A stretch of DNA of 64,000 nt from Escherichia coli (GTDB lineage: Bacteria > Pseudomonadota > Gammaproteobacteria > Enterobacterales > Enterobacteriaceae): assembly GCF_044324875.1 (NCBI RefSeq), contig NZ_CP172185.1; one strand, given 5' to 3'. The position numbers and the translations under genes are program-made. The notes beneath the pieces were generated by a model, which was given only the letters and a program-made list of their open reading frames with translations, was not told where the DNA came from and ran no database searches. This document shows, piece by piece, positions 33,646-60,651 of the stretch; positions within the stretch are counted from its first letter, which is position 1, and every line of letters begins with the position of its first letter.

Positions 33646-34122
33646 TTAAAGCAGACCGTGTTCCGCAAAGGAGAACACCCGGCTGCCACCGACTATCAAA
33701 TGGTCCGGTACCCGGATATCCACCAGGGCCAGTGCCTGTACCAGACGTTCAGTGATAAGGCGGTCTGCCTTACCGGGTGTGACCTCACCGGACGGATGAT
33801 TGTGCGCCAGCACCACGGCAGCGGCATTGTGGTACAGGGCGCGTTTAACCACCTCCCGGGGATGCACTTCCGTGCGGTTGATGGTGCCGGTGAAGAGGGT
33901 TTCACCGGCAATCAGCTGATTCTGGTTGTTCAGGTACAGCACCCGGAACTCTTCCCGCTCCAGTCCCGCCATGTGCAGAATCAGCCATTCCCGTGCCGCA
34001 TGCGTGGAGGTGAAGGCCACGCCGGGTTCATGAAGATGGCGGTCCAGGGTTTTCAGGGCCCGCTGAATGAGGCTGCGCTCGCCGGGCGTCATCGCGCCGG
34101 GCAGAAAGGAAATCTGTTGCAT
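33646..34122 (-). CDS. RadC-like JAB-domain protein (YeeS/YkfG/YfjY family)
   Basis: ORF 33646-34164 with JAMM-like motif HNHPSGEVTPGKADRLITERL. Confidence 0.85.
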   Translation of the reverse strand: MQQISFLPGAMTPGERSLIQRALKTLDRHLHEPGVAFTSTHAAREWLILHMAGLEREEFRVLYLNNQNQLIAGETLFTGTINRTEVHPREVVKRALYHNAAAVVLAHNHPSGEVTPGKADRLITERLVQALALVDIRVPDHLIVGGSRVFSFAEHGLL

Positions 34123-34133
34123 AACCTCACTCC

Positions 34134-34607
34134 TCAGTCGATGATGCGCATAATGGCGCTGCATTCCGGATGCTGCAGGGCGTAATCCCGCAGCCGGTAA
34201 TAATGGACCGTCATGGCATAATGCTCCGTACGGCAGGCGTGATGACTGTAGGCCATCAGGCAGGCGGCAATGCCGGCGGCTTCAGGGCTCATTTCCGCGC
34301 GGTTGCCGTTCATGGTGTTAAACAGTGCCCATGTTTCGTCATCATCGTCACCCGGTTCGGGAGCCATAAATGCGCCGCCGTTGTTCAGGGTGTACATATT
34401 CCAGATACCCCCACTGTAGTCTTCACACAGACGGTCCATCCAGCCGAAGATTCGGGGCTCAAGGGTCACCCACTGCGGAATGAGGCCAAAGTGCTGCGGC
34501 CAGAAGCTGATGCGCTGTTCGTCAGGCACTGGGCTGGCAACCAGCTGAGGTGGATTATTCCCGGATGCAGTGGTTGCGGAAACAGAGTCATGCGAAACCG
34601 TTTTCAT
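34134..34607 (-). CDS. antirestriction protein (YfjX/YafX, KlcA/ArdB-like family)
   Basis: ORF 34134-34709; family-conserved part starts at ATG 34607 (MKTVSHDSVSATTASG...); tail ...HHACRTEHYAMTVHYYRLRDYALQHPECSAIMRIID; upstream ORF extension runs into IS21 DNA. Confidence 0.8.
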   Translation of the reverse strand: MKTVSHDSVSATTASGNNPPQLVASPVPDEQRISFWPQHFGLIPQWVTLEPRIFGWMDRLCEDYSGGIWNMYTLNNGGAFMAPEPGDDDDETWALFNTMNGNRAEMSPEAAGIAACLMAYSHHACRTEHYAMTVHYYRLRDYALQHPECSAIMRIID

Positions 34608-34825
34608 AAGTGAAATCCTTAAGTGCAAAATGGCATCTGAATCGATCGCAGTTTGGCATTCGAATCGATCATGATTTGGCATCCATCTCCGATCACAGTT
34701 TGGCATCACAATCGATCACGATTTGGCATGCTTCCGATCATTGATTGGCATCCTGCCAGTCACTCCGGGAATTAACTCTTTTCACCACAGTCTCCATTGC
34801 CGTGTTTAAACCAGTGGAGACGTCA

Positions 34826-36391: not shown

Positions 36392-36407
36392 CAGAAGGAA
36401 CAACAGT

Positions 36408-37163
36408 ATGAGTGATAACCTGTTAAACAAACTGACCCAACTGAAACTCCCGGCGATGGCCGGGAGCCTGATACGGCAGCGGGAAACGCCTCAGACCTAC
36501 GACGAACTGTCGTTCGAGGAAAGGCTGACGCTGCTGGTTGATGACGAGCTTCTGAGCAGGGAAAACAGCCGTGTGGCACGGTTGAGAAAAAATGCCGGCC
36601 TGAAATACCAGGCAACACCGGAAGGGCTGCGCTATCCGGCCTCAAGAGGTCTGCGGGCTGAACAGATGAGAGAACTGCTGAACGGCCACTACATAACCCA
36701 CAGGAAAAACCTGCTGATAACCGGTCCGACAGGATGTGGCAAGAGCTGGATAGCCAATGCGCTGGGCGAACAGGCATGTCGACAGAAACACAGCGTCCGG
36801 TACTGTAGAACCGGGCGATTACTGGAACAACTGGCTCAGGGACGTGTTGATGGCAGCTGGCTGAAATATCTGAAACAGTTGCAAAAAATACAGGTTCTAA
36901 TCCTGGACGATCTGGGGCTGGAACAGTTAAGTAACGCCCAGTGTAATGACCTTCTGGAGCTCATAGAGGATCGTTACGGACAAAGCAGCACGATAGTGGT
37001 AAGCCAGTTCCCGGTAGATAAATGGCATGGTCTGATGGAGAACCCAACAACAGCAGATGCCATCCTGGACAGACTGGTACATAACTCACACCGAGTGGTC
37101 CTTCAGGGAGAGTCACTGAGGAAAAATCCCCCGGTAGTGGAAAGCAGCGAAAAAACGCGTTAA
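36408..37163 (+). CDS. istB: IS21-family helper ATPase IstB
   Basis: Internal ATG of ORF 36165-37163 (MSDNLLNKLTQLKLPAMAG...); Walker A GPTGCGKS. Confidence 0.85.
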   Translation: MSDNLLNKLTQLKLPAMAGSLIRQRETPQTYDELSFEERLTLLVDDELLSRENSRVARLRKNAGLKYQATPEGLRYPASRGLRAEQMRELLNGHYITHRKNLLITGPTGCGKSWIANALGEQACRQKHSVRYCRTGRLLEQLAQGRVDGSWLKYLKQLQKIQVLILDDLGLEQLSNAQCNDLLELIEDRYGQSSTIVVSQFPVDKWHGLMENPTTADAILDRLVHNSHRVVLQGESLRKNPPVVESSEKTR

Positions 37164-37262
37164 AAAGCGGTAGAAAAAGTTAAGTTCCCGGTTGATCGAA
37201 TGGATGCGAATCGCTGATCGGACTTCGATGCCAATCCGTGATCGAATAGAGCGGAATACGCA

Positions 37263-37330
37263 CTTAAGTGAATAAGTGAACAAGTGAATTAAGGAAATAA
37301 GTGAATGAATAAGTGAATAAGAGAGAAAAG
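37263..37330. repeat. tandem array of 8-bp AAGTGAAT-like units
   Basis: cttaagtgaataagtgaacaagtgaattaaggaaataagtgaatgaataagtgaataag; one more unit (aagtgaaat) lies on the other side of the IS21 element at 34609-34617. Confidence 0.7.
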
Positions 37331-37356
37331 ACAGGGCACTGACAGCGTCGCGTTAA

Positions 37357-38175
37357 TCAGCGCAGGCTCTCCAGCAGCGTTTCCGTCATCACCCACAATG
37401 CGCGGTTGAGCTTAATGTCGGTGTCAATGCTGTGAATGGCCCGGGTGTGGATACGTTTTCCTTTTGCACTGCGCCCCTGAAGACCACCCTTGAGCATATT
37501 CTCCTGGATGGTCTGATAAGCACTCCACAGGTCCTTACCGTAATCCTCCCGGCGTCGTGGCGTCAGAATGTCAGCGGTGGTGACGGGCTGATGTTCGTCA
37601 CCATAACGGTAAGTCAGGGCGGCCTGTGCCAGCGCTTGGCGAGCCGGTGGTGGTAAAATCAGCGACTGCATGGCATCACGCTTCTCCTCAATCCGGTCAA
37701 AAACCCCCACCACTTCGTAAGCCCCTTCGATGACCCTGTCCACCACGTTTCCCCGGTGTGGCACACGCACCTCTCCGAGAGACTGACCGCAGACGCACCC
37801 GTTCTGACACACGAACCGGAAGTAACCCGGCAGCATCTGGTAGCTGGAGGTACCGTCATGGGAGTTGAGCAGAATGATTTCCGGGACATGCTGCCCGTTT
37901 ATCTCCCCGTCACGGCGCAGACGCAGCATGTGCTTTGTGTATCCCCGACGTCCCGGGTCCCGCACGCGGGTCTGGCAGGCAAAGAAGGGCTGAAAGCCTT
38001 CCCGCTGCAGGCTTTCCAGCACGGTAATGGTGGGGATGTATGTATAGTTCCGGCTCCGGGAGGTGTGCTTATCTTCCCCGAAAATCCCGGGCACATGGTG
38101 CATCAGTTCTTCATGTGTCAGCGGACGGTCACGGCGTATCTGGTTCGCATAACCAAAACGACTGGCTAATCGCAT
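37357..38175 (-). CDS. DUF932/UPF0380 family protein (YfjQ/YafZ-like)
   Basis: 272-aa ORF MRLASRFGYANQIRRDRPLTHEELMHHVPGIFGEDKHTSRSRNYTYIPTITVLESLQREGFQPFF... Confidence 0.7.
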   Translation of the reverse strand: MRLASRFGYANQIRRDRPLTHEELMHHVPGIFGEDKHTSRSRNYTYIPTITVLESLQREGFQPFFACQTRVRDPGRRGYTKHMLRLRRDGEINGQHVPEIILLNSHDGTSSYQMLPGYFRFVCQNGCVCGQSLGEVRVPHRGNVVDRVIEGAYEVVGVFDRIEEKRDAMQSLILPPPARQALAQAALTYRYGDEHQPVTTADILTPRRREDYGKDLWSAYQTIQENMLKGGLQGRSAKGKRIHTRAIHSIDTDIKLNRALWVMTETLLESLR

Positions 38176-38699
38176 ACTTTGCTCCTTATCAGTGGTTAAG
38201 ACTGACTGACGTAATCAATGAAAAAGCCGCGTCTCCCGGAGAAGACGCGGCCTGATGGATGAAATGAATGAGGGTTTACCGAAGTCCTTCAGCATTGAGG
38301 TGAAGCCGCCGGAAATGTGTTCCCGGGTCATCTTCGATAAATACATTGCGGTAAGCTGTTATGGCAGAAACCGCCTGCACGTGTGAGAAAGGTCTTCGCT
38401 TAAGACGTACTCTGTGTGATCCGGTATTTCTGGTTTCTCCTGATTAATAGCCTCTGCCACAAAGTGTGGAAGAGGCTGAATCATGGTATTTACTTCTTTC
38501 ATCATGGTGGTATTCCGGTGTATTAACCGGGATCTGATTCCGGAAAATAAGGAATAAACGTAAAGGAGCAGAATGCTCGTTATGCCAGACACGCAGGGGG
38601 TAATGCCTCTTCCGGGTGGTTAACCATATTGCCGGGATGTGATGCTTCATATTCCATAACAGAGCGTTGCCTGATGATACTGACTACCAGTGGTTTGAT

Positions 38700-38927
38700 T
38701 CACATATTGGTCGCTGCCCGTTGCTGTACGCCGGCGGCGAAAATGATCTCCAGAGCATTCTGATCGATAACACGGGCCAGATTCGCGTTCAGATTTTCAG
38801 TTTCATTTTCGGTCAGCAGGAAACTGACGGCAAGCCACGTCACCTGCTCCTGAATCATGGCAGGAATTTTGATGCGCTCCTCTTCAGCCAGAGTACCGGC
38901 AATTTTTCCTGATACCACTGCAATCAT
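38700..38927 (-). CDS. hypothetical small protein (75 aa)
   Basis: ORF MIAVVSGKIAGTLAEEERIKIPAMIQEQ...; start overlaps stop of upstream 76-aa ORF by 4 bp. Confidence 0.3.
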   Translation of the reverse strand: MIAVVSGKIAGTLAEEERIKIPAMIQEQVTWLAVSFLLTENETENLNANLARVIDQNALEIIFAAGVQQRAATNM

Positions 38928-39154
38928 TCCTCCCGGAACGCCGCCCGCCAGCGAATATGAAATAACCGGGGTATGCGTTCAGTGATACAGCCAGCCAGTA
39001 AAGCCGGACCGGACAGACACAGCAATATGAGTCCTGCCAGCACAGACGCTGTGCTGGTTAATGCTCTGAACAAAAAGCGAAGAATGGCAAATCCTGCGAT
39101 AAGCAGGATCAGCACGCCGACTATCTGTAACATAGTCCCCCTGATAAATATCAT
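38924..39154 (-). CDS. hypothetical small membrane protein (76 aa)
   Basis: ORF with two hydrophobic segments (LQIVGVLILLIAGFAILRFLF, ASVLAGLILLCLSGPALLAGC) immediately downstream of flu. Confidence 0.3.
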   Translation of the reverse strand: MIFIRGTMLQIVGVLILLIAGFAILRFLFRALTSTASVLAGLILLCLSGPALLAGCITERIPRLFHIRWRAAFREE

Positions 39155-39253
39155 GTTATTGTTAATGCCAGCGAATGTGGCGTTGAATATCCGTTGCGCC
39201 GGTCCGGGTCCCGATCATGATGACCGGGACCACAAAGAGGCAATGCAGAATTG

Positions 39254-50234: not shown

Positions 50235-50912
50235 ATGTCAGAAATTGCCCTGAGTCTTAATGATGTTCATGTTGTTTATACCAGAAGCAGACAGGTCGTG
50301 TTACAGGGTTTTTCAATGTCCGTTCATAAAGGTGAACTTGTATGTCTGCTTGGCGTTTCAGGTTGTGGAAAAACAACCGTATTACGAACTGTAGCAGGCC
50401 TGGAACGATTACAACAAGGTGAAATATTCATATCACAACGCTGTGTAGCCGGAGCCGGAATTCATCTCCCCCCGGAAAAGCGCAGGGTCGGAATGGTCTT
50501 TCAGGAATATGCTCTGTTTCCCCACCTGACAGTAACACAAAATGTAGCCTTTGGTCTGCGCCATCTGCCTTATGAACTACAGCATGCCAGAGTCACTGAA
50601 CTTCTGAAAATGGTTGAATTATTATCCTGTGCAAAGCGCTATCCTCATGAACTCTCAGGTGGACAGCAACAACGTATTGCACTTGCCAGAGCACTGGCCC
50701 CGGCCCCTGATATTTTGTTACTGGATGAGCCATTTTCCAGTCTGGATAAACAAACCAGTGAATACCTAGTGAAAGAAGTACGGGACCTGTTACGTAGTTC
50801 AGGTCAGACAGCCCTGATCGTTACTCATAATGAATCAGAAGCACTCGAAATATCAAACCGTATTTGTATCATGACGGAGGGTAATATAAGTTCGGTTCAG
50901 TCTGTGGTCTGA
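50235..50912 (+). CDS. afuC: ABC transporter ATP-binding protein (AfuC/FbpC-like), possibly lacking a C-terminal regulatory domain
   Basis: 225-aa ORF with Walker A GVSGCGKTT, signature LSGGQQQR, Walker B ILLLDEPFSSLD; ends right after the NBD. Confidence 0.75.
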   Translation: MSEIALSLNDVHVVYTRSRQVVLQGFSMSVHKGELVCLLGVSGCGKTTVLRTVAGLERLQQGEIFISQRCVAGAGIHLPPEKRRVGMVFQEYALFPHLTVTQNVAFGLRHLPYELQHARVTELLKMVELLSCAKRYPHELSGGQQQRIALARALAPAPDILLLDEPFSSLDKQTSEYLVKEVRDLLRSSGQTALIVTHNESEALEISNRICIMTEGNISSVQSVV

Positions 50913-51720
50913 GACGTAACCGCACATTCAGGATCCCCTGTTCGTCATGGAAGCTGTATTATGTAACTATATGGAGGCATAGCAGATATTGTTGAAGAAA
51001 TACATCAAAAACACTCACATTTCTGGTACAACAGGAGTTGTAGATTTAATGATTATTGGGACGAAGTTACTACAGAAAAGCTGTACCGGGAACAGGTATG
51101 GTAGTTCCTTGTCACGTGTGGATTAAATGAGCATAATGCAGATCAATTACAAAAGGCATTTCGTAATAGCTCTGTTGTTGATTCGGTTACCATGATGGCT
51201 GTGGCAAGAGCCACCATGTGACTATACATGATATAATTATTTGTGTGATGTTGTTATACCTGAACAACAGGCATGAGATAATGGAAAAAATTATACATAT
51301 AACTCGGCTTTCCCATACTCCACTACAGAACAGTATATGATTCTGAACATTTCAATCCAGGCGCATTACATAACTATATTACATGTAACTATCTGGCCCT
51401 CAAATCATCGAGAGAATTGTTTAAAGTCAGCAGTCATAATCTGAATATAGATCATTATCACATAATTTAATTCTTAATTCACTACATTTTCCCTTGAATC
51501 CGGTATAATAAGACAGAGCACATGGCTGATGCTTTGTTTCGGTGTGGATAATCTGGTGGCGTCGGCTATGTGCTCTCAACAGTTAACTTATTATGAATAC
51601 TATTATCAATACAGGTTTTACATAAAAAAATAAAAAGCATCTCCTGATATCAGCCCAGTCTCTTTGGGCTAACCAGAATTATACATAAGCTATGCAGATA
51701 TTAATTTGCATACAAAACCA

Positions 51721-52203
51721 TTATTTTCTTGAGCACACTATACTAATGTATCCCAGAAGAGGTCCTGTGCATAATCCTGTTGCTGCCCATAATACAGCAA
51801 GTGAAATATCAGGACCATCTGTATCCGGATAAAATCCTCCATAATAAACAGCAAATACAGTAGAGTATGCATTGAATGCAGGTAAACTACTGTTCATGCA
51901 CGGTATCTGAAGGAGTAAAAGAAGAACATACACTGTTATTATTACTGATATAATGATTGCCAACATGGCAGAAATGTGCAGGGATATCATGTAATTTATA
52001 GCAGCAATACATAACACAGACGTTGCTATACCGGGAAGTAATGAAGCATAAATTTTCTTTAATATGTCAGGCGTCGCTCCCAGAGCATAGTACCATGCCC
52101 AGCCAATAAATATAGCCCACACAGGAATATTAATCCCCGGCCATGAAGCCAGGCATGACATCCCTGCTAACAGGGCTATGGTAAGATTCATCGGTAATTT
52201 CAT
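51721..52203 (-). CDS. hypothetical polytopic membrane protein (DUF1097/YcdZ-like by composition)
   Basis: 160-aa hydrophobic ORF last in the carboxylase gene string; resemblance to YcdZ is by eye only. Confidence 0.45.
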   Translation of the reverse strand: MKLPMNLTIALLAGMSCLASWPGINIPVWAIFIGWAWYYALGATPDILKKIYASLLPGIATSVLCIAAINYMISLHISAMLAIIISVIITVYVLLLLLQIPCMNSSLPAFNAYSTVFAVYYGGFYPDTDGPDISLAVLWAATGLCTGPLLGYISIVCSRK

Positions 52204-52217
52204 TTCAGACGCACCTG

Positions 52218-53204
52218 TTATGAGCCATAAGATAATGAATTAATGAGAAGGTTGAGTCTTTCATTAAATTCTTTACGGATTTCCAGAGCTTTATCCATAC
52301 TGACTTGTGAAAATGTCACACTGGAGCCGGGTGCAAGTTGAGCCAGAATATCGAGATCAGTACTCACTACTGTCCCCACTGTCATATATCCCCCTCCTGA
52401 TACAGCATCCCTGTGCAAAACTATTGGTGTGCTTCCAGAGGGAACCTGAATTGATCCCACGGGATAACAGGCATCAACGATATTTGATGGATCTGAACCA
52501 GCACCAAATGGCGGGTGCCGATCAACAAAATTAAGTGAGCGCCCTCCCTGAAACCTGAAACCTGTTCTGTCTGAATCCTTACTGATCTTCCATACATCAT
52601 CAAAAAAACTTTCAACTGATTCCTGTTTCAGGCGATGGATATACATTCCGGGTACAACACGTAATTCATTTTCTTTAGTAAAAACTGGACGTAACTCATC
52701 TGGCAGAGTGTAATTTATACGCCCTTTATTACATATTGCTTCCTGTACGGGTAATTCATCTCCGGCCTGTAACCGACGTCCTTTATAACCACCAAGACTG
52801 CCAAGGAGGTAAGTAGAACGACTTCCGGCAATAACAGGGACATTAATACCTCCCGCGATGGCAAGGTAACAGCGTACACCCACCGTGGTGTATGCGATTT
52901 TTAATATCTGTCCTTTCCGGGCTAACAGGGATGTATTCACCGGAACACTCTGATTATCCAGGGTCACCGTAAAAGGGGCACCGCTGACTGCAAAAAGAGT
53001 ATCCTGCTCAAACAAGAGTTCGGGCCCCAGTAATGTGCATTCCAGCGCTGCATCAAACGGGTGATTACCGACAAGCAAATTGGCGGTAACTAACCCTGTA
53101 CGATCTAATGCACCGGATGGCGGGATCCCGAGATGATAAAAGCCTTCTCGTCCTCCGTCCTGAACGGACGTGGATAATCCGGGCGTCAATACTTTAATTC
53201 CCAT
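52218..53204 (-). CDS. KipA/PxpC-family protein (allophanate hydrolase subunit 2-type carboxyltransferase domain)
   Basis: ORF 52218-53252; internal start MGIKVLTPGLSTSVQDGGREGFYHLGIPPSGALD... Confidence 0.8.
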   Translation of the reverse strand: MGIKVLTPGLSTSVQDGGREGFYHLGIPPSGALDRTGLVTANLLVGNHPFDAALECTLLGPELLFEQDTLFAVSGAPFTVTLDNQSVPVNTSLLARKGQILKIAYTTVGVRCYLAIAGGINVPVIAGSRSTYLLGSLGGYKGRRLQAGDELPVQEAICNKGRINYTLPDELRPVFTKENELRVVPGMYIHRLKQESVESFFDDVWKISKDSDRTGFRFQGGRSLNFVDRHPPFGAGSDPSNIVDACYPVGSIQVPSGSTPIVLHRDAVSGGGYMTVGTVVSTDLDILAQLAPGSSVTFSQVSMDKALEIRKEFNERLNLLINSLSYGS

Positions 53205-54078
53205 ACAGTTCTCCCAGTAAATTTTTAGTATAATCTTCAGGATTTTCTTCAAATGCGTTCAAATCAAAATTTACAGGCCTGATAAGTAATTCAAAATTAC
53301 CAGATTCCACATCACTTATACATTGATTATATTGTTCAGTATTGATCGCCCTGAACTTAATGATGTCCCCTGCCCGGAAAAACACCATAGAGTCTTTGAA
53401 ATATGATAATTTCTGTTCTGTGTCATAAATCGGAGCTGGTGTTATACCGAACAATTGATACCCACCTGCCCCCCGGACTGGATATATAGCCCCGAAGCAC
53501 CCGCCATGACCAACAGAATGTTTTGGTGTATCAGTTCTGGGAACAAGATATTTTGGAACCTGGATTTGCTTTTTCCGGTCAACCATCTGATACATAAAAG
53601 GCAGCCCGGCAACGAAGCCAACCATAGAAACAAACCAGGGACTTGAATGATGGGCCTCAATAAACGTCTGAACATCCGGATATCCGTTTATTTCAGCAGC
53701 ATACTCAAGATCGGTTAATGCCGGGTTTTGATGATTATTCCGGAACCGCATCAGGGTTTCATGAGTCCATGGATCATTATACAATACAGGAATTTCAATT
53801 ATACGTGTCTGTAGTGTCATTTCTCCATTCCCGGAGAGCACATTAACATTTCGTATCTGTTGTAACAAATCATCAGGGTGTATAATGTCGGGATTAAATC
53901 TTATCTGACATGATGCATTTGCAAGGCAAATATCGAGCACACCATTAATATTTAATGATTCTATTTTTCTCGTAAGAGACAAGCTGTGAAAAAATGCTTT
54001 AAGAGACATTTCCTCACTGACTTCGATGAAAAGATGCTCATCAGCACCAAATGTATAGCGCAAATTTATATCAGTCAT
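53194..54078 (-). CDS. KipI/PxpB-family protein (allophanate hydrolase subunit 1-type)
   Basis: 294-aa ORF; overlaps downstream KipA-like gene by 11 bp; cyclophilin-like AHS1 pattern. Confidence 0.8.
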   Translation of the reverse strand: MTDINLRYTFGADEHLFIEVSEEMSLKAFFHSLSLTRKIESLNINGVLDICLANASCQIRFNPDIIHPDDLLQQIRNVNVLSGNGEMTLQTRIIEIPVLYNDPWTHETLMRFRNNHQNPALTDLEYAAEINGYPDVQTFIEAHHSSPWFVSMVGFVAGLPFMYQMVDRKKQIQVPKYLVPRTDTPKHSVGHGGCFGAIYPVRGAGGYQLFGITPAPIYDTEQKLSYFKDSMVFFRAGDIIKFRAINTEQYNQCISDVESGNFELLIRPVNFDLNAFEENPEDYTKNLLGELYGN

Positions 54079-54087
54079 ACAGGTTCC

Positions 54088-55449
54088 TCATTTAAATGCA
54101 CCGGTATTCAGCCAGTCTTCAAGCGTTTTATTATGAAACTGAGCATTTCTGAAAAACTCAGCTGATAATAATGCTTCATGAAGAGGTATAGTTGTATGAA
54201 CGCCTTCTATTTGCATATTACCAAGGGTCTCCCGGGCAAGACTTATCGTTTTTTCTCTGCTGTCAGTATGAATAATAAGTTTTGCCAGTAAAGAATCATA
54301 CCAGAGAGGCATCTTATACCCTTCAAACATGTGAGTATCGACTCTTATTCCCTGCCCTTCAGGTATCTGCAATACCGATATTGTTCCGGGACTGGGCATA
54401 AAACCATTGTAAGGATTTTCTGCATTAATCCTCATTTCAATTGCAGCTCCCTGTAACGTAATCTCATCCTGTCCAAACGACAGAGAGTCGCCCCCGGCAA
54501 TTCTCAGCATCCAGTCGATAATATCAATGCCTGTGACCATTTCTGTAACCGGATGTTCAACCTGAATCCGCGTATTCATTTCAATAAAAAAGAATTCCCC
54601 GCTCCGGTCATCGACCAGGTACTCAATAGTTCCTGCGCTTGAATAATTCAGCATTCTGGCGAGATTCAGTGCACTCTGACATAAGGCCTCACGTAGTGAC
54701 GCTGAAACAGAAGGCGATGGCGCTTCTTCTGTCACTTTTTGTCTTTTTCTCTGCAGAGAACACTCTCGTTCAAACAGGTGAACGATGTTTTTTCCGTCTC
54801 CAAGGATCTGAACTTCAACATGACGGGCTTCCGGTATATAACGTTCCAGATATACACCATCGTGCCCGAAAGCTGCTTTTGCTTCAGCACGCGCTACTGT
54901 ATATTCATGCACCAGCTGTTCCGGAGAATGTACAATCCGTATCCCCTTCCCGCCTCCCCCGGCCGAGGCCTTTATCAATAAAGGATATCCGGTAATATCC
55001 GATGCTACTGATAATGCCTCCTCAGGGCTTATAACCTCGCCATTTGAGCCTGGTACAACCGGGACACCTGCCTTTATCGCGCAATCTCTCGCGATTGCTT
55101 TATCCCCCATTTGCTCAATAATCTGAGGAGATGGCCCAACAAAAATAAGCCCTGCATCGAGCACCGCACGGGCAAAAGACGCATTCTCCGACAGAAAACC
55201 ATATCCGGGATGAATGGCCTGAGCGCCAGACTGAAGGGCTGCATCAATTATCTTCTTTCCGTCCAGATAACTGTCATCGGCACGGGATTTACCTATGACA
55301 ATAACTTCATCGGCGCTCTTTGCCGGAAGAGAATTGATGTCTGATTCGCTACATGCCAGCACCGTTTTTATATTCAGCTTCTTTGCACTTCGTATAATTC
55401 GTAATGCAATCTCACCTCTGTTGGCAATAAGCAGTTTTTGAATACTCAT
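54088..55449 (-). CDS. biotin carboxylase (AccC-like ATP-grasp enzyme)
   Basis: 453-aa ORF MSIQKLLIANRGEIALRIIRSAKKLNIKTV...; ATP-grasp and biotin carboxylase signatures. Confidence 0.85.
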   Translation of the reverse strand: MSIQKLLIANRGEIALRIIRSAKKLNIKTVLACSESDINSLPAKSADEVIVIGKSRADDSYLDGKKIIDAALQSGAQAIHPGYGFLSENASFARAVLDAGLIFVGPSPQIIEQMGDKAIARDCAIKAGVPVVPGSNGEVISPEEALSVASDITGYPLLIKASAGGGGKGIRIVHSPEQLVHEYTVARAEAKAAFGHDGVYLERYIPEARHVEVQILGDGKNIVHLFERECSLQRKRQKVTEEAPSPSVSASLREALCQSALNLARMLNYSSAGTIEYLVDDRSGEFFFIEMNTRIQVEHPVTEMVTGIDIIDWMLRIAGGDSLSFGQDEITLQGAAIEMRINAENPYNGFMPSPGTISVLQIPEGQGIRVDTHMFEGYKMPLWYDSLLAKLIIHTDSREKTISLARETLGNMQIEGVHTTIPLHEALLSAEFFRNAQFHNKTLEDWLNTGAFK

Positions 55450-55621
55450 GCTCAGTTCCTTATATTATTTCTATGGTAGCCAGTACCTGACCAGGTTCCA
55501 CTTCCTCCCCATTCTCCACCTTAAACTGGATAGACTGGCCCCCTGAATCTCCAGACAACCAGTATCACTTAAATAAGTGATAGTCTTAATACTAGTTTTT
55601 AGACTAGTCATTGGAGAACAG

Positions 55622-55987
55622 ATGATTGATGTCTTAGGGCCGGAGAAACGCAGACGGCGTACCACACAGGAAAAGATCGCAATTGTTCAGCAGAGCTTTG
55701 AACCGGGGATGACGGTCTCCCTCGTTGCCCGGCAACATGGTGTAGCAGCCAGCCAGTTATTTCTCTGGCGTAAGCAATACCAGGAAGGAAGTCTTACTGC
55801 TGTCGCCGCCGGAGAACAGGTTGTTCCTGCCTCTGAACTTGCTGCCGCCATGAAGCAGATTAAAGAACTCCAGCGCCTGCTCGGCAAGAAAACGATGGAA
55901 AATGAACTCCTCAAAGAAGCCGTTGAATATGGACGGGCAAAAAAGTGGATAGCGCACGCGCCCTTATTGCCCGGGGATGGGGAGTAA
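55622..55987 (+). CDS. insC: IS2 transposase OrfA (InsC)
   Basis: ATG at 55622, [41 protein letters not shown]... Confidence 0.93.
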
Positions 55988-56850
55988 GCTTAGTCAGCCG
56001 TTGTCTCCGGGTGTCGCGTGCGCAGTTGCACGTCATTCTCAGACGAACCGATGACTGGATGGATGGCCGCCGCAGTCGTCACACTGATGATACGGATGTG
56101 CTTCTCCGTATACACCATGTTATCGGAGAGCTGCCAACGTATGGTTATCGTCGGGTATGGGCGCTGCTTCGCAGACAGGCAGAACTTGATGGTATGCCTG
56201 CGATCAATGCCAAACGTGTTTACCGGATCATGCGCCAGAATGCGCTGTTGCTTGAGCGAAAACCTGCTGTACCGCCATCGAAACGGGCACATACAGGCAG
56301 AGTGGCTGTGAAAGAAAGTAATCAGCGATGGTGCTCTGACGGGTTCGAGTTCCGCTGTGATAACGGAGAAAAACTGCGAGTCACGTTCGCGCTGGACTGC
56401 TGTGACCGTGAGGCACTGCACTGGGCGGTCACTACGGGCGGCTTCAACAGTGAAACAGTACAGGACGTCATGCTGGGAGCGGTGGAACGCCGCTTCGGCA
56501 ACGAGCTTCCGGCGTCTCCAGTAGAGTGGCTGACGGATAATGGTTCATGCTACCGGGCTAATGAAACACGGCAGTTTGCCCGGATGTTGGGGCTTGAACC
56601 GAAGAGCACGGCGGTGCGGAGTCCGGAGAGTAACGGCATAGCAGAGAGCTTCGTGAAAACGATAAAGCGTGACTACATCAGTGTCATGCCCAAACCAGAC
56701 GGGTTAACGGCAGCAAAGAACCTTGCAGAGGCGTTCGAGCATTATAACGAATGGCATCCGCATAGTGCACTGGGTTATCGCTCGCCACGGGAATATCTAC
56801 GGCAGCAAGCCAGTAATGGGTTAAGTGATAACAGGTGTCTGGAAATATAG
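55945..56850 (+). CDS. insD: IS2 transposase OrfB (InsD)
   Basis: 301-aa ORF overlapping insC (frameshift fusion arrangement); DDE integrase core. Confidence 0.93.
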
Positions 56851-57058
56851 GGGCAAATCCACTGGATATTAGTCCCGGTTGTTTCAGCATGAATTTCGTT
56901 AAACTGCTTCATTATTTCAATCAACCCAATGACGGTACTCTCCTGAACAGTGTCACCATTCTCCAGAAACGGGGCACTATCAGGTGCTGGTTTCCGATAA
57001 AATACACCAGGTAAAGGTGAAAGAATTTCTGTAACAGCCATAACATCCTCCATGTATA

Positions 57059-57820
57059 TCAGTTTTGAGAATTTACACTTATGTCTGCCTCACGTAAGGC
57101 TTTATTTATTGCAATCAGAAGAGATAAGGCACCGGGCGTATCACTATGGACACAGACAGAAGAGAAATGAATGTCAATATCCTGATCTTCTACAGTACGA
57201 ACTTTTCCCTCCAGACAGGCACGCAGCACTTTTTTTGCGACATCATCAGGATTAAGAGGTTCAGTTCTCCGTATAAATACAATGGAACCGCTTTGATCAT
57301 AATCCCTGTCGGCATAAAACTCACAAATAACAGGATGTCCGATTTGCGTCGCTTCTTTCCAGATGGCACTACCATACATGCAATATATTCTCAATTCAGG
57401 CGCATAACTATGAAGCGTTGAGACAAAATGCTTTGCAGCATCCCGATCATGAGCAAGATGCATATACAACGCGCCATGAGGCTTAACATGGTTTACAGGC
57501 ACATTGTGTAATGTGGCAAATTCACGCAAGGCCCCCAGCTGATAAATCATGTCATTGGTGATTTCCTCTGCGGTGCAGTGAATATGACGCCGGCCAAAAC
57601 CAGCCAGATCACGATAACCGGGATGAGCACCGACAGACACACCACTGTCACGGGCGCTGATTATTGTACGGTGCATAATCCCCGGATCACCTGCATGAAA
57701 ACCTGTCGCTATATTCGCTGAGGAGATGTATGGCATAATATCAATATCCCGGATATCTCCGAGAGTCCATGCTCCAAAGCTTTCCCCCATATCAGAGCTG
57801 ATATCAATACTGCGAAGCAT
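57059..57820 (-). CDS. LamB/YcsF-family protein (PxpA-like lactam utilisation protein)
   Basis: ORF 57059-57868; ATG at 57820 (MLRSIDISSDMGESFGAW...) preceded by GGAGG. Confidence 0.8.
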   Translation of the reverse strand: MLRSIDISSDMGESFGAWTLGDIRDIDIMPYISSANIATGFHAGDPGIMHRTIISARDSGVSVGAHPGYRDLAGFGRRHIHCTAEEITNDMIYQLGALREFATLHNVPVNHVKPHGALYMHLAHDRDAAKHFVSTLHSYAPELRIYCMYGSAIWKEATQIGHPVICEFYADRDYDQSGSIVFIRRTEPLNPDDVAKKVLRACLEGKVRTVEDQDIDIHFSSVCVHSDTPGALSLLIAINKALREADISVNSQN

Positions 57821-57962
57821 TAAAACCTCCGTCTGACAAATACGGTAACAGTATGTCATGTAGCACATTTGTTTCTTTATTGTAAATTATTATTTTTCTA
57901 TGGTAATATATTAAATTTATTTATAATTACTGTTGCAAAAATATCTTTATCAGGAAAATTTG

Positions 57963-58898
57963 ATGAACATCACACTCAGACAGATAAAATATTTCGTATC
58001 AACAGCGGAGTCCGGATCGTTATCAACTGCAGCCAAATCACTCAATATTTCACAGTCTGCGATAACAACAGCAATTCAGGGGCTTGAAAGGGACATCGGT
58101 TATAAATTACTGATTCGCTCAAAATCTGGCGTTGATTTAACAGATGAGGGAAGACTGTTCTTATACAATGCCTACAATATTATCCGGACATATGATGAGG
58201 CAATAAATACAGTGCATGTTCAGAAGCCTTTGCATGGAACAGTTTCCATTGCGGCGACTTATACAATAATGGGATATTTTTTACCTGTTCATCTGAAACA
58301 ATTTTCAAGAATTTATCCACATATAAAGCTGGAGCTTTTTGAAAATCAAAGAAGCATTATTGAAACCGGACTTCTCAGCGGAAAATATGATATTGGGATT
58401 GTAATCAATGATAATCTGACATGTCCCGATATTGTATCAGAAACACTGTTACGGTCGGAGCGCCGTATATGGTTACCATCCGGCCACCCTCTGCTGGAAA
58501 AAGAAATTCTCTCCCTGAATGATATTGTCTCAGAGCCTTTTATTATCCTTGATGTGGATGAAGCATGGGAAACAGCAAAACGTTACTGGAATACGGCCAG
58601 TACCATGCCAGATGTAATTTTACATACGCATTCTATTGAAGCTGTACGAAGTATGGTTGCGAATGATATGGGTATAACCATTCTTTCTGACATGGTTTAT
58701 CGCCCATGGTCGCTTGAAGGGAAACGTATAGAAACACGCGCATTATCTAAATCAGAAGTTTTCCCAATGAGTATTGGCCTGGCATGGCGTAATAATGTTG
58801 AGTTTACGCCTGCAATGCAGGCTTTCATCAATTATTTCAGAAAGATTTTTATGTGTTCTCCCGGTTATCAAAACCGGAATGTTGACCACTTTATCTGA
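57963..58898 (+). CDS. LysR-family transcriptional regulator, divergent from the carboxylase operon
   Basis: ORF 57933-58898; ATG at 57963 gives MNITLRQIKYFVSTAESGSLSTAAKSLNISQSAITTAIQGLE (LysR HTH). Confidence 0.8.
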   Translation: MNITLRQIKYFVSTAESGSLSTAAKSLNISQSAITTAIQGLERDIGYKLLIRSKSGVDLTDEGRLFLYNAYNIIRTYDEAINTVHVQKPLHGTVSIAATYTIMGYFLPVHLKQFSRIYPHIKLELFENQRSIIETGLLSGKYDIGIVINDNLTCPDIVSETLLRSERRIWLPSGHPLLEKEILSLNDIVSEPFIILDVDEAWETAKRYWNTASTMPDVILHTHSIEAVRSMVANDMGITILSDMVYRPWSLEGKRIETRALSKSEVFPMSIGLAWRNNVEFTPAMQAFINYFRKIFMCSPGYQNRNVDHFI

Positions 58899-59039: not shown

Positions 59040-60497
59040 TCAGACCTTTACCAGCACCTGAGGGCAGTGATGGCGCAAACAGGTCAGAAGCGTGGCGAAA
59101 GCCTCTTCCATCTGCGCTTCCGGCAGACTCGCAAATCCCATCAACAGTCCTCTTTTACGCTGTGCTGTCAGGTAGTAAAGCGACAGCGGACGCACCAGTA
59201 TATTTTGTGCATTGGCGCTGGCCGCAACCGCAACATCATCAACATCGTCCGGTAAATTTAATATCAGATGCAGCCCGGCATTATCGCTGAAATCTGACAG
59301 TGCCTGTGTTCCACAGTGACGTTCAATCAGTTCACCAAGAAAGGCGCGACGGCGACTGTACAGTAACCGCATACGGCGAATATGAGCAGAATAATGCCCT
59401 CCGTTGATAAACTCAGCCAGTGCCATCTGGATCAGTGTATGCCCGCCACGATAAAGCTCAGCATGGGCACGTTTTAAAGCCTCTTTCAGCGGGCGCGGTA
59501 ATACCAGATAACCCAGCCTCAGTCCGGGATACACTGTCTTGCTGAAAGTACCAATATACACCACTGGTGCATCGTCAATAAGCCCCTGTAGTGCCGGAAC
59601 TGGTTGACCGGAAAAGCGAAATTCACTGTCATAATCATCTTCCACAATCCAGCTTCCATGCTGTCTGGCAAGGGCCAGCAAGCGTTGCCGTCGCTCAAGA
59701 CTCATCACCACGCCCAGAGGGTATTGATGGGATGGCGTGACGAAAATCAGCCTGGGAGGTGGCATCAGGCGTTCGGGAGGTACCAGACCACTGGCATCAA
59801 CGGCAACAGGGGTGATCTGCACAGCATTCATTGCCAGTACATGGCGTATTCCCCAGTAAGACGGCTCTTCCACCCATGCCATATCACCGGCATCTGCCAG
59901 CATGCGTGCAACAAGATCGATCGCCTGATGGATACCTTCGGTGATAAGTATCTGATCAGCCTGACAGCGTACGCCACGCGCAATCCGTAAATAATCAACC
60001 AGTGCATGCTGTAATTCCGGTGTCCCTCCGGTACAGCTATAGCTCAGCCGCTCCGGCTCAGGACGGCGACTGATACGCGCCTGAATCCTGCTGAACAGGG
60101 GGTGGGGAAAGGCACTGACATCCGGGACGCCGGGAATAAATGCCCCCCACTGGCACGGACTGGCGCTGACATGCCGGAGCAGATAATCCCCGCGGTGAGA
60201 AACAGCAGAACTCAGCCTGGCATCTTCACTTTTTTCCGTGTTACTGAACGCCATTAAGAAGGTATCAGGAGCCGTCTGTGCGACGAATGTTCCGCTTCCA
60301 CGACGTGATACCACATATCCTTCCGCCTGTAATTGTTCATAAGTTGTTAATACTGTGTTTCTTGAGATTCCAAGTTCAACTGCAAGTTCCCTGGAGGCAG
60401 GGAGACGGCTGTGCGGCGGTAAAGAGCCATCGAGAATAGCATAGCGAAGCGCATTATAGAGCCGTTTGTGCAGAAGTTTATCCTGCTCCTGACCCAT
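59040..60497 (-). CDS. MocR/GabR-type regulator (GntR HTH fused to PLP aminotransferase-like domain)
   Basis: ORF 59040-60533; N-terminal GntR HTH (RLPASRELAVELGISRNTVLTTYEQLQAEGYV) plus large fold-type I domain; start codon uncertain. Confidence 0.8.
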   Translation of the reverse strand: MGQEQDKLLHKRLYNALRYAILDGSLPPHSRLPASRELAVELGISRNTVLTTYEQLQAEGYVVSRRGSGTFVAQTAPDTFLMAFSNTEKSEDARLSSAVSHRGDYLLRHVSASPCQWGAFIPGVPDVSAFPHPLFSRIQARISRRPEPERLSYSCTGGTPELQHALVDYLRIARGVRCQADQILITEGIHQAIDLVARMLADAGDMAWVEEPSYWGIRHVLAMNAVQITPVAVDASGLVPPERLMPPPRLIFVTPSHQYPLGVVMSLERRQRLLALARQHGSWIVEDDYDSEFRFSGQPVPALQGLIDDAPVVYIGTFSKTVYPGLRLGYLVLPRPLKEALKRAHAELYRGGHTLIQMALAEFINGGHYSAHIRRMRLLYSRRRAFLGELIERHCGTQALSDFSDNAGLHLILNLPDDVDDVAVAASANAQNILVRPLSLYYLTAQRKRGLLMGFASLPEAQMEEAFATLLTCLRHHCPQVLVKV

Positions 60498-60651
60498 TCT
60501 GAACAGCAGCAGATCGCCTATGAATGCCCTCAACTGGATCCCTCAGATAATCAAAATTGGTACTCGATTATAGTGCCATCGCCTGCCTAAATAAACAACA
60601 CAGCGTCTCATTTGTTGCAGTTAAGTGACATATTTAACAGGAGAGTCGGGA

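What the first reader, a model, noticed from the sequence alone, without database searches (positions are those of the whole stretch)
51721..58898. Uncharacterised split biotin-dependent carboxylase system with urea-carboxylase-like subunits
Six co-directional genes encode a LamB/YcsF (PxpA-like) protein, a small biotinyl-domain carrier (IEIMKQ motif), a biotin carboxylase, KipI- and KipA-type proteins and a hydrophobic membrane protein, with a divergent LysR regulator. BC + KipA/KipI + BCCP are the domains fused in urea carboxylase, whereas the canonical 5-oxoprolinase PxpABC needs no biotin. The cluster therefore predicts a multi-subunit ATP- and biotin-dependent carboxylase acting on an unknown amide or lactam substrate, possibly imported by the membrane protein. 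It is not part of the K-12 core layout and, to my knowledge, has no assigned substrate in E. coli.
Basis: partly seen in the sequence, partly recalled or inferred. Interest (0 to 1): 0.72.

Follow-up and report, generated by a model that had tools for sequence, protein, structure and literature searches.

The report
Biotin-dependent lactam-opening enzyme operon
A rare E. coli island carries a six-gene operon (here broken by an IS2 insertion) that most likely opens the small ring amide 2-pyrrolidinone to GABA by briefly attaching CO2 from biotin, a chemistry known for urea but never shown for ring amides.

Summary
On the minus strand lie PxpA/LamB, an 81-aa biotin carrier (split by IS2), a biotin carboxylase, urea-carboxylase-type PxpB- and PxpC-like proteins and a DUF1097 membrane protein. 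A LysR gene lies divergent to them.

These are not spare AccBC and PxpABC copies. They are 29-36% identical to K-12 PxpABC, and the PxpC-like protein's best solved relative is urea carboxylase.

The string is conserved in alpha-, beta- and gammaproteobacteria. Of 77 related loci, 49 have the five-gene core. The other 28, all Pseudomonas, have lost BC and BCCP while keeping every invariant residue.

That three-gene form is P. putida PP_2919-2922, the published butyrolactam-specific hydrolase and regulator. A GABA transaminase gene lies nearby in E. coli and directly follows the operon in its closest relative.

I re-analysed the published P. putida fitness data. Biotin-synthesis mutants have a large butyrolactam-specific defect that pyruvate carboxylase does not explain and that is largely absent on GABA.

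Best reading: an ATP- and biotin-driven lactam hydrolase. The lactam is N-carboxylated, PxpA opens the ring, and CO2 is lost. BC and BCCP act in cis, or in trans where they were lost. No biochemistry exists for this mechanism. In this strain the operon is probably inactive.

The parts
57963..58898 (+). LysR-family regulator, divergent from the operon; ortholog of P. putida PP_2919, the butyrolactam-responsive activator
   Evidence: NCBIfam returns generic LysR hits only. A LysR gene 42-56% identical sits divergently next to pxpA in 77 of 81 loci. PP_2919 is annotated as LysR family and has fitness -4.6/-3.8 on butyrolactam. The reporter responds only to butyrolactam.
57821..57962 (.). AT-rich divergent intergenic region, presumed control region for lysR and the operon
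   Evidence: Sequence read. Minus-strand promoter-like hexamers lie at 57914-57879, but the number of such sites in the region is at chance level. The role is inferred only.
57059..57820 (-). PxpA/LamB/YcsF-family protein (253 aa), proposed hydrolase that opens the N-carboxylated lactam ring
   Evidence: NF003814 subfamily at 279 bits; it fails the PxpA equivalog cut-offs. It is 32% identical to K-12 PxpA. PDB relatives are the UPF0271/YbgL proteins. Orthologs are 51-63% identical in most of the 78 loci that carry one, and 37-41% in three divergent alphaproteobacterial loci.
56862..57041 (-). 5' fragment of the BCCP gene: codons 1-60, including the biotinyl-lysine motif IEIMKQ
   Evidence: Aligned on AccB EAMKM, Lys122. 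NF005457 at 88.7 bits, cut-off 87.
55531..56861 (+). IS2 insertion (insC/insD) that splits the BCCP gene; 5-bp target duplication CTGGA at 55526-55530 and 56862-56866
   Evidence: PGAP annotates matching copies as 'IS3-like element IS2 family transposase'. The insertion is absent from all 11 complete E. coli genomes that carry the cluster.
55460..55530 (-). 3' fragment of the BCCP gene: the last 21 codons plus the stop codon
   Evidence: Comparison with the IS-free allele L001:16561-16806.
54088..55449 (-). Biotin carboxylase (453 aa), the ATP-consuming subunit
   Evidence: NF009471 at 703.7 bits, cut-off 686; it fails accC TIGR00514, 563 against 626.5. It is 47% identical to K-12 AccC, and all AccC catalytic residues are conserved: K116, K159, H209, K238, E276, E288, N290, R292, E296, R338.
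53194..54078 (-). PxpB/KipI-like carboxyltransferase part (294 aa, long urea-carboxylase-type form; Pfam CT_C_D)
   Evidence: It aligns over residues 7-272 to K. lactis urea carboxylase 839-1108. Only about 100-150 residues align to YbgJ. It is 29% identical to K-12 PxpB. 104 invariant columns are kept in all forms.
52218..53204 (-). PxpC/KipA-like carboxyltransferase part (328 aa; Pfam CT_A_B)
   Evidence: The best PDB match is urea carboxylase 3va7 at 185 bits, ahead of YbgK 5dud at 165 bits. It shares with urea carboxylase the loop FGAGSDPSN, which YbgK and MSMEG_0435 lack. It is 36% identical to K-12 PxpC.
51721..52203 (-). DUF1097 membrane protein (160 aa, six predicted helices), last gene of the operon; role unknown (substrate uptake is possible)
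   Evidence: Pfam PF06496, E=1e-18. The same position after PxpC is seen in L095 and L096, and after the BCCP in Bacillota loci L097/L098. The AF2 model has pLDDT 91.6. No significant fold match in the PDB.
59040..60533 (-). MocR/GabR-type PLP-dependent regulator: neighbour and probable downstream module
   Evidence: NF052282 PdxR-type at 409 bits (cut-off 320); GabR at 285 bits, below cut-off. It is divergent from the aminotransferase gene.
60652..61917 (+). 4-aminobutyrate (GABA) transaminase: neighbour that would consume the proposed product
   Evidence: It passes three GABA-transaminase equivalog cut-offs: NF005272 842 against 725, NF007308 766 against 747, TIGR00700 667 against 507. A 78%-identical gene follows PxpC by 62 nt on the same strand in the closest relative, L002.

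Best explanation
The operon encodes an ATP- and biotin-dependent lactam hydrolase, a 'lactam amidolyase' built like a split urea amidolyase. Its most likely substrate is 2-pyrrolidinone (butyrolactam), or a very similar small gamma-lactam.

Proposed steps:
1. The LysR protein senses the lactam and switches on the operon.
2. Biotin carboxylase uses ATP and bicarbonate to carboxylate the biotin on the 81-aa carrier.
3. The urea-carboxylase-type PxpB/PxpC-like pair transfers the carboxyl group to the lactam nitrogen. This gives an N-carboxy-lactam whose ring carbonyl is activated.
4. The PxpA/LamB-family protein hydrolyses the ring.
5. The resulting N-carboxy-GABA loses CO2 spontaneously.
Net reaction: lactam + ATP + H2O -> GABA + ADP + Pi.
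6. GABA is then taken by the adjacent GABA transaminase.

Where BC and BCCP are missing from the operon (many Pseudomonas, one Enterobacteriaceae MAG), or only BC is missing (Bacillota), housekeeping AccC/AccB supply carboxybiotin in trans.

What is shown: gene content, catalytic residues, orthology, conservation, and the biotin phenotype in P. putida. What is inferred: the N-carboxylation chemistry, the role of PxpA, the substrate in E. coli, and the role of DUF1097.

In the window strain, IS2 truncates the carrier and probably blocks transcription of the four genes downstream. The system is most likely inactive there.
For: Urea-carboxylase-like parts:
- All parts are present and look catalytically competent.
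- The PxpC- and PxpB-like proteins resemble the urea carboxylase CT domain more than canonical PxpC/PxpB. This includes a loop shared only with urea carboxylase.

Conservation:
- BCCP and BC lie between pxpA and pxpB in 49 of 77 loci from alpha-, beta- and gammaproteobacteria. No AccA/AccD-type partner is present.

Link to the P. putida system:
- The three-gene form is nested inside the five-gene clade and arose several times.
- It keeps 99.9-100% of the invariant residues of all three proteins.
- It is 82-95% identical, LysR included, to the nearest five-gene Pseudomonas loci.
- This three-gene form is PP_2919-2922 of P. putida. That is supported by the synteny treS-LysR-LamB-CT_C_D-CT_A_B...Mqo and by the annotations and fitness of -4.4 only on butyrolactam.
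- Deletion, complementation and reporter assays showed it to be specific for butyrolactam.

Biotin requirement in P. putida:
- Across 22 nitrogen sources, bio-mutant fitness tracks pyruvate-carboxylase-mutant fitness (r = 0.79-0.93).
- On butyrolactam, pyruvate carboxylase is dispensable (-0.03). Yet bioB scores -3.28, which is 10.9 sd off the fit, and bioF/H/C/D score -1.0 to -1.3, which is 3.3-4.4 sd off.
- On GABA, bioB scores -0.78; on valerolactam, -0.97.

Other support:
- Stand-alone KipA/KipI homologs of M. smegmatis capture the biotin of a housekeeping BCCP in a cryo-EM structure (bioRxiv 10.1101/2025.10.28.685139).
- A GABA transaminase gene lies nearby in E. coli and sits in the same gene string in the closest relative, L002.
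- A Bacillota variant carries a BCCP but no BC.
Against: - No enzyme of this family has been assayed in vitro for biotin, bicarbonate or avidin sensitivity.
- The literature's working model for PxpABC is ATP-dependent phosphorylation of the lactam by PxpB/PxpC, without biotin (PMC13274462).
- The P. putida enzyme works without a dedicated BC or BCCP. The biotin link there rests on my re-analysis of one pooled-fitness data set. The bioB effect is much larger than that of bioF/H/C/D. An indirect cause, such as butyrolactam interfering with biotin cross-feeding, is not excluded.
- The E. coli proteins are only 55-65% identical to the Pseudomonas ones, so the substrate could differ.
- The GABA transaminase is adjacent in only 3 of 81 loci.
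- N-carboxy-lactam has never been observed.
- The A. nidulans lamA/lamB parallel rests on my memory and could not be checked.
Confidence: 0.6

Rival explanations
1. The PxpABC-like trio is a self-sufficient ATP-dependent lactamase, working by the phosphorylation mechanism assumed in the literature. The co-encoded BC and BCCP have an accessory role, for example regulation by biotin sequestration or a side reaction on the product, and are not part of the catalytic cycle.
For: - The three-gene form in P. putida is functional without a dedicated BC or BCCP.
- The published model assigns ATP use to PxpB/PxpC.
- The mycobacterial authors interpret biotin capture as sequestration or regulation.
Against: - BC and BCCP are kept intact, between pxpA and pxpB, in 49 loci across three classes.
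- The PxpB/PxpC-like proteins are homologous to a bona fide carboxyltransferase domain.
- The P. putida three-gene form shows a butyrolactam-specific biotin requirement.
- From my own knowledge, unverified here: the Pxp proteins have no recognised nucleotide-binding domain.
Confidence: 0.15
2. It is a true carboxylase with a stable carboxylated product, acting on a different amide, ureide or cyclic imide such as a hydantoin, succinimide, urea or guanidine derivative. PxpA would then process that product.
For: - The CT parts are closest to urea carboxylase.
- In 28 of the 48 non-E. coli five-gene loci, the next gene is a permease with weak similarity to cytosine permease (NCS1). That family transports cyclic amides.
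Against: - No allophanate hydrolase or carboxyguanidine deiminase partner is present.
- No guanidine or other riboswitch was found.
- Pseudomonas five-gene loci are 82-95% identical, LysR included, to the butyrolactam-specific three-gene system.
- PP_2920-2922 mutants show about -4.4 on butyrolactam, and near-zero values in the other columns visible in the excerpts read.
Confidence: 0.15
3. It is a second 5-oxoprolinase (a pyroglutamate-detoxifying isozyme), that is, an ordinary PxpABC paralog that happens to sit beside spare AccB/AccC copies.
For: PGAP names the genes '5-oxoprolinase subunit ...' and 'acetyl-CoA carboxylase ...'.
Against: - The proteins fail the PxpA/B/C equivalog cut-offs and are 29-36% identical to K-12 PxpABC.
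- In P. putida the two systems do not cross-complement, and their regulators respond only to their own lactam.
- The carrier lacks the N-terminal half of AccB, and no AccA/AccD is nearby.
Confidence: 0.07

Closest known systems
Pseudomonas putida KT2440 PP_2919 / PP_2920-2922, butyrolactam hydrolase and its LysR activator (Schmidt et al., bioRxiv 10.1101/2021.12.09.472016)
   Same: - Same orthologous group. PxpA/B/C-like and LysR are 58/64/55/54% identical to the E. coli proteins, and 82-95% identical to five-gene Pseudomonas loci.
- Same divergent LysR layout.
- All invariant residues are shared.
   Different: - It has no BC, BCCP or membrane-protein gene in the operon.
- Its biotin dependence was never examined by the authors: 'biotin' occurs 0 times in their main text.
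- The E. coli version adds BC, BCCP and DUF1097.
Urea carboxylase / urea amidolyase (K. lactis, PDB 3VA7 and 5I8I)
   Same: - Same domain set: BC, a KipA-type and a KipI-type carboxyltransferase part, and BCCP.
- It is the best solved relative of the PxpC-like protein. It is the only solved protein that aligns along the whole PxpB-like protein.
- It shares the AGxxPSN loop.
   Different: - It is one polypeptide; here there are four.
- Its partner is an amidase-signature allophanate hydrolase; here it is a LamB/YcsF protein.
- Its substrate is urea; here the predicted substrate is a lactam.
- The parts score far below the urea_carbox equivalog cut-off of 1304 bits.
Prokaryotic 5-oxoprolinase PxpABC (E. 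coli YbgJ/YbgK/YbgL; B. subtilis KipI/KipA/YcsF)
   Same: The same three protein families are encoded together, and the reaction is ATP-dependent opening of a five-membered lactam.
   Different: - Only 29-36% identical.
- Canonical PxpB is short (218 aa against 294 aa), and canonical PxpC lacks the loop shared with urea carboxylase.
- No BC or BCCP is encoded with it.
- Its substrate is 5-oxoproline.
Aspergillus nidulans lamA-lamB lactam-utilisation locus
   Same: From my own memory, not checked here: lamB is the founding LamB/YcsF protein, and lamA is a urea-carboxylase-like fusion (BC + CT + BCCP). Both are needed to use 2-pyrrolidinone, which is converted to GABA. That is the same parts list and the same substrate as proposed here.
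   Different: It is eukaryotic, with BC, CT and BCCP fused in one protein. As far as I know its enzymology was never worked out. I could not retrieve the sequence or the paper with these tools.
[quoted passage not shown]
   Same: These are stand-alone KipA/KipI homologs that bind the biotin of a BCCP domain supplied in trans. The biotin is positioned as for carboxyl transfer.
   Different: They are distant relatives (about 92 and 53 bits) and lack the loop shared with urea carboxylase. No substrate is known for them. The authors interpret the complex as regulatory sequestration.

Membership tests
PxpABC-type prokaryotic lactam hydrolases (5-oxoprolinase family) | LamB/YcsF, CT_C_D (AHS1/KipI) and CT_A_B (AHS2/KipA) proteins encoded together | tested here: met
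   NCBIfam hits for the E. coli proteins. Pfam PF03746, PF02682 and PF02626 on orthologs.
PxpABC-type prokaryotic lactam hydrolases (5-oxoprolinase family) | Equivalog-level match to PxpA, PxpB and PxpC of 5-oxoprolinase | tested here: not met
   PxpC NF045499: 223.5 bits against a cut-off of 500. PxpB TIGR00370: 73.1 against 145.55. PxpA equivalogs: 141-226 against 337-392. Only the PxpA subfamily models pass. Identity to K-12 PxpABC is 29-36%.
PxpABC-type prokaryotic lactam hydrolases (5-oxoprolinase family) | ATP-dependent hydrolysis of a lactam | not testable with these tools
   This needs an enzyme assay. Genetic evidence exists only for the P. putida ortholog.
Butyrolactam hydrolase group (P. 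putida PP_2919-2922) | Orthology of all three enzyme subunits and of the divergent LysR regulator | tested here: met
   55-65% identity, the same layout in 77 of 81 loci, one clade in the tree, and shared invariant residues.
Butyrolactam hydrolase group (P. putida PP_2919-2922) | Growth on, and induction by, butyrolactam | not testable with these tools
   Shown for KT2440 only. No E. coli data were found.
Biotin-dependent carboxylases of the urea carboxylase type | Biotin carboxylase with the complete ATP-grasp catalytic residue set | tested here: met
   All AccC catalytic residues are invariant in alignment A2. NF009471 scores above its cut-off.
Biotin-dependent carboxylases of the urea carboxylase type | Biotinyl carrier with the conserved (A/I/V)MK(M/Q) lysine | tested here: met
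   The IS-free allele has EIMKQ aligned on AccB K122. In the window itself the gene is split by IS2.
Biotin-dependent carboxylases of the urea carboxylase type | Carboxyltransferase made of KipA-type and KipI-type parts | tested here: met
   3va7 is the best PDB match for the PxpC-like protein, and it aligns along the full length of the PxpB-like protein.
Biotin-dependent carboxylases of the urea carboxylase type | Single-chain urea carboxylase (equivalog TIGR02712) with an allophanate hydrolase partner | tested here: not met
   There are four separate genes. The parts score 101-507 bits against a cut-off of 1304. No amidase-signature gene appears in the annotated neighbourhoods.
Biotin-dependent carboxylases of the urea carboxylase type | Biotin- and bicarbonate-dependent catalysis | not testable with these tools
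   Only indirect support exists: the butyrolactam-specific defect of bio mutants in KT2440.
Housekeeping acetyl-CoA carboxylase AccB/AccC | Equivalog match to AccC and AccB, full-length AccB, and AccA/AccD partners | tested here: not met
   accC TIGR00514: 563 against 626.5. BCCP TIGR00531: 58.7 against 115.2. The carrier lacks AccB residues 1-76. No AccA/AccD-type carboxyltransferase is in the locus.

The most novel reading that the evidence does not exclude
All PxpABC-type lactam hydrolases may be cryptic biotin enzymes. This would include the widespread 5-oxoprolinase of E. coli K-12 and B. subtilis, and the KipI/KipA proteins of mycobacteria.

On this reading, the ATP they consume is spent by a biotin carboxylase. 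The PxpB/PxpC pair is a carboxyltransferase that N-carboxylates the lactam using carboxybiotin. The BCCP is encoded in the operon (this cluster, fungal LamA) or borrowed from acetyl-CoA carboxylase.

The E. coli island operon would then be the complete, self-contained version of a mechanism that is hidden elsewhere.
Probability: 0.3. Interest if true: 0.85.

Novelty: new variant of a known kind. Interest (0 to 1): 0.68.

Why it matters
If the mechanism holds, this is a new reaction type for biotin enzymes: ATP-driven amide-bond hydrolysis through a transient N-carboxylation, applied to lactams. Until now that logic was known only for urea amidolyase.

It would assign a function to a gene string present in at least several hundred species (at least 575 matches in the species scan). 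It would correct the routine annotations 'acetyl-CoA carboxylase' and '5-oxoprolinase'. It would explain why the fungal lactam locus pairs LamB with a urea-carboxylase-like protein. It would also offer an answer to an open point about PxpABC enzymes: where their ATP dependence comes from.

Practically, butyrolactam and other lactams are nylon monomers and solvents. A defined, regulated lactam-opening module and its sensor are useful parts for metabolic engineering.

For E. coli, it marks a rare accessory island that links lactam opening to GABA catabolism.

Tried and rejected
- **Ordinary AccBC plus PxpABC copies:** rejected on cut-offs, identities and architecture.
- **Guanidine or another riboswitch, as found with some urea-carboxylase-like genes:** none in the window near the cluster.
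- **Promoter and terminator scans:** counts are at chance level, so nothing was built on them.
- **Alignment of the divergent intergenic regions across genera:** no conserved LysR box could be seen.
- **DUF1097 as a BioY-like biotin importer:** a confident AF2 model (pLDDT 91.6) has no significant PDB neighbour. The best hits have E about 1, with ALMT channel membrane domains at TM 0.5. The idea is unsupported. The island DUF1097 is also unrelated in sequence to the nearby core gene ycdZ.
- **The downstream permease of other genomes:** no Pfam hit, and only a weak cytosine-permease hit at E=1e-6.
- **Literature:** Niehaus 2017 (PxpABC) and Fan 2012 (urea carboxylase structure) are not held. 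Searches for lamA/lamB and for any paper linking LamB/YcsF or PxpA with biotin gave nothing relevant.
- **Search of 1.84 billion representatives with the PxpB-like protein:** mostly fragments, with no informative fused relatives.
- **Raw ranks of bio-mutant fitness** were only suggestive. The signal became clear after regression on pyruvate carboxylase fitness.
- **The 5-oxoproline column of the fitness table** is cut off in the stored file, so canonical PxpABC could not be tested in the same way.
- **Modelling an artificial BC-PxpC-PxpB-BCCP fusion:** I decided against it. Agreement with the urea carboxylase structure would be close to circular.

Full report
**1. What is in the sequence**

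Six minus-strand ORFs and a divergent LysR gene occupy 51721-58898, as described. Family assignments from NCBIfam and Pfam:
- DUF1097 membrane protein, 51721-52203 (PF06496, E=1e-18).
- PxpC/KipA-like, 52218-53204.
- PxpB/KipI-like, 53194-54078.
- Biotin carboxylase, 54088-55449.
- A small biotin carrier.
- PxpA/LamB-YcsF, 57059-57820.
- LysR, 57963-58898.

Neighbouring genes are separated by -11 to +17 nt, which indicates one operon.

The carrier gene is cut by a 1331-bp IS2 at 55531-56861 with a 5-bp target duplication, CTGGA. Strain 23CRST013 has the same DNA at 100% identity without the IS. Its carrier is 81 aa and has the motif IEIMKQ.

The cluster occurs in 11 of 5426 complete E. coli genomes. 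It is intact and chromosomal in all of them. It lies in a low-GC island (GC 0.37-0.47) next to tRNA-Ser(GGA).

**2. Not spare copies of known E. coli genes**

- The PxpC-, PxpB- and PxpA-like proteins are 36, 29 and 32% identical to K-12 PxpC/B/A. They fail the 5-oxoprolinase equivalog cut-offs.
- The PxpC-like protein's best solved relative is K. lactis urea carboxylase (185 bits), ahead of E. coli YbgK (165 bits). It shares a loop with urea carboxylase (FGAGSDPSN against GEAGLHPSN) that YbgK and MSMEG_0435 lack.
- The PxpB-like protein aligns end to end only with the urea carboxylase C/D subdomains.
- The biotin carboxylase keeps every AccC catalytic residue. However, it fails the accC equivalog and passes a separate model, NF009471.
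- The carrier is a bare biotinyl domain without the N-terminal half of AccB.
- No AccA/AccD-type transferase and no allophanate hydrolase is nearby.

**3. Conservation**

I analysed the best 80 loci.

Mapping the E. coli proteins onto these loci gave two layouts:
- LysR | PxpA-BCCP-BC-PxpB-PxpC in 49 of 77 scorable loci. The genera include Rhizobium, Shinella, Paraburkholderia, Burkholderia, Herbaspirillum, Marinomonas, Dickeya, Lonsdalea, Pseudomonas and E. coli.
- LysR | PxpA-PxpB-PxpC in 28 loci, all fluorescent Pseudomonas. One Enterobacteriaceae MAG, L002, also has this layout.

A tree of the concatenated PxpA/B/C proteins places the three-gene loci inside the five-gene clade, in several separate groups. 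BC and BCCP were therefore lost repeatedly.

The losses left the enzymes untouched. Columns invariant in non-fluorescent five-gene sequences (44, 104 and 92 columns for A, B and C) are kept in 99.9-100% of three-gene cells. Nearest three-gene and five-gene Pseudomonas loci are 82-95% identical in all three enzymes and in LysR.

**4. Link to a characterised system**

P. putida-group genomes show the order treS(688 aa)-LysR-LamB-CT_C_D-CT_A_B-DUF4130-radical SAM-Mqo-Ugd. This fits the KT2440 numbering PP_2918 to PP_2926. The identities of PP_2918 and PP_2925/6 come from my memory.

The preprint's own table confirms the rest: PP_2919 is 'LysR family', PP_2922 is 'urea amidolyase-related', and fitness is about -4.4 in the butyrolactam columns.

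Schmidt et al. showed the following:
- PP_2920-2922 is required for butyrolactam as nitrogen source.
- It is not interchangeable with the 5-oxoproline or valerolactam enzymes.
- The promoter upstream of PP_2920, assigned to the regulator PP_2919, responds only to butyrolactam.

The family therefore has a known substrate, and the five-gene Pseudomonas loci almost certainly share it. For E. coli (55-65% identity) this is an inference. It is reinforced by GABA genes:
- An aminotransferase that passes three GABA-transaminase equivalog cut-offs lies two genes away, next to a MocR-type regulator.
- In L002, the closest relative of the E. coli proteins, a 78%-identical GABA transaminase gene follows PxpC by 62 nt.

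**5. Is biotin really involved?**

Four lines of evidence:
- The conserved position of BC and BCCP inside the operon.
- The urea-carboxylase-type transferase parts.
- A Bacillota variant (PxpB-PxpC-PxpA-BCCP-DUF1097) that has a carrier but no BC within 9 kb. This shows the biotin parts can be supplied partly in trans.
- A cryo-EM structure in which stand-alone KipA/KipI homologs of M. smegmatis hold the biotin of the AccA3 carrier 'positioned to participate in a carboxylation reaction'.

The most direct evidence comes from re-reading the KT2440 fitness table:
- Over 22 nitrogen sources, bioB/F/H/C/D fitness follows that of the pyruvate carboxylase mutants PP_5346/7 (r = 0.79-0.93).
- Butyrolactam is the one strong outlier. 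Pyruvate carboxylase is dispensable there (-0.03), yet bioB scores -3.28, which is 10.9 sd below the regression. bioF/H/C/D score -1.0 to -1.3, which is 3.3-4.4 sd below.
- On GABA, the product, bioB scores -0.78. On valerolactam and caprolactam, which use the unrelated OplBA enzyme, it scores -0.97 and -0.54.
- Methylcrotonyl-CoA carboxylase mutants are neutral on butyrolactam.

So an operon without BC or BCCP still creates a specific biotin demand when its substrate must be opened. The simplest reading is that it borrows AccB and AccC. For those genes the table I could read has no rows.

The authors did not discuss this: 'biotin' occurs 0 times in their main text. It is one pooled data set and the effect is largest for bioB, so it needs direct confirmation.

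**6. Mechanism proposed**

By analogy with urea amidolyase:
1. BC loads CO2 on the carrier.
2. PxpB/PxpC-like proteins carboxylate the lactam nitrogen.
3. The PxpA/LamB protein hydrolyses the activated ring.
4. The carbamate product loses CO2.

This yields GABA at the cost of one ATP. Only the parts list and the genetics are shown. The chemistry is inferred.

**7. The membrane protein**

- DUF1097 homologs are few (15 clusters).
- All three further contexts examined carry the same operon. Two are enterobacterial-type and identical in order to E. coli. One is the Bacillota variant.
- In 28 of the 48 other five-gene loci, a different permease of about 450 aa follows PxpC. That permease is never found in three-gene loci.

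A transport role is plausible but untested. The fold search gave no lead.

**8. State in this strain**

IS2 removes the last 21 residues of the carrier. It is inserted in the opposite orientation to the operon, upstream of bc, pxpB-like, pxpC-like and DUF1097. The system is most likely inactive here, unless downstream transcription restarts and AccB substitutes for the carrier.

**9. Verdict**

The cluster is best described as a self-contained, biotin-equipped member of the butyrolactam-hydrolase branch of the PxpABC/urea-carboxylase superfamily. It is a new variant of known kinds and is biochemically uncharacterised. It comes with a testable mechanistic hypothesis that may extend to PxpABC enzymes in general.

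Noticed in passing
Public data: P. putida KT2440 fitness table, supplement 4 of bioRxiv 10.1101/2021.12.09.472016: Biotin-synthesis mutants track pyruvate carboxylase mutants across 22 nitrogen sources, except on butyrolactam. There bioB scores -3.28 while pyruvate carboxylase is dispensable. GABA is the second-largest, much smaller, negative residual. The authors do not mention this.
   Followed up: yes
L097 5668-9531 and L098 (Bacillota MAG): A variant cluster, PxpB(346 aa)-PxpC-PxpA-BCCP(70 aa)-DUF1097, has no biotin carboxylase within 9 kb. About 1.4 kb of non-coding DNA lies upstream of it.
   Followed up: partly
L003-L080, directly after PxpC (for example L032 11944-13266): A membrane protein of about 440-470 aa follows PxpC in 28 five-gene loci and in no three-gene locus. 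It has no Pfam match and only a weak cytosine-permease hit (E=1e-6). It looks like an undescribed permease family tied to this operon.
   Followed up: partly
window 29941-30028 and 30100-47400: The island is inserted next to tRNA-Ser(GGA), downstream of ghrA. It starts with a CP4-44-like module: a CbtA/YeeU toxin-antitoxin pair, RadC, an antirestriction protein, DUF932, an Ag43 adhesin that is a pseudogene in the reference strain, an IS66-family element and a GTPase-family gene.
   Followed up: partly
window about 26800-27300 (ycdZ) versus 51721-52203: The core genome has its own DUF1097 gene, ycdZ, a few kb before the tRNA. The island's DUF1097 is unrelated to it at the sequence level (BLASTP E=0.18). 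The proximity looks coincidental.
   Followed up: yes
window 47498-50912: An ABC importer (solute-binding protein, fused double permease of 562 aa, PotA/PhnT-like ATPase) converges on the operon. It is part of the island in all carriers examined. Its substrate is unknown, and it may belong to the same nitrogen-scavenging module.
   Followed up: no
window 50913-51720: An 800-bp AT-rich stretch (GC about 0.35) with no ORF of 60 aa or more lies between the ABC ATPase gene and DUF1097.
   Followed up: no
window 24000-48500 versus NZ_AP045773.1: This stretch of the window is about 2.6 kb longer than the closest complete genomes, which match in two pieces covering 89%. An Rfam 'IS102 RNA' hit lies at 44845-45041. 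This suggests a further strain-specific insertion besides the IS2.
   Followed up: no
L012 19385-20840 (Pseudomonas congelans): About 9 kb downstream of a three-gene locus there is a second LysR gene followed by a BCCP-like ORF 40% identical to the E. coli carrier, at the end of the fetched stretch. It could be another biotin-dependent cluster.
   Followed up: no
window 4953-5002, 14110-14152, 24250-24341: Rfam gathering-level hits to the PyrC leader and to the ES036 and ES056 sRNAs. These are ordinary core-genome features unrelated to the finding.
   Followed up: no
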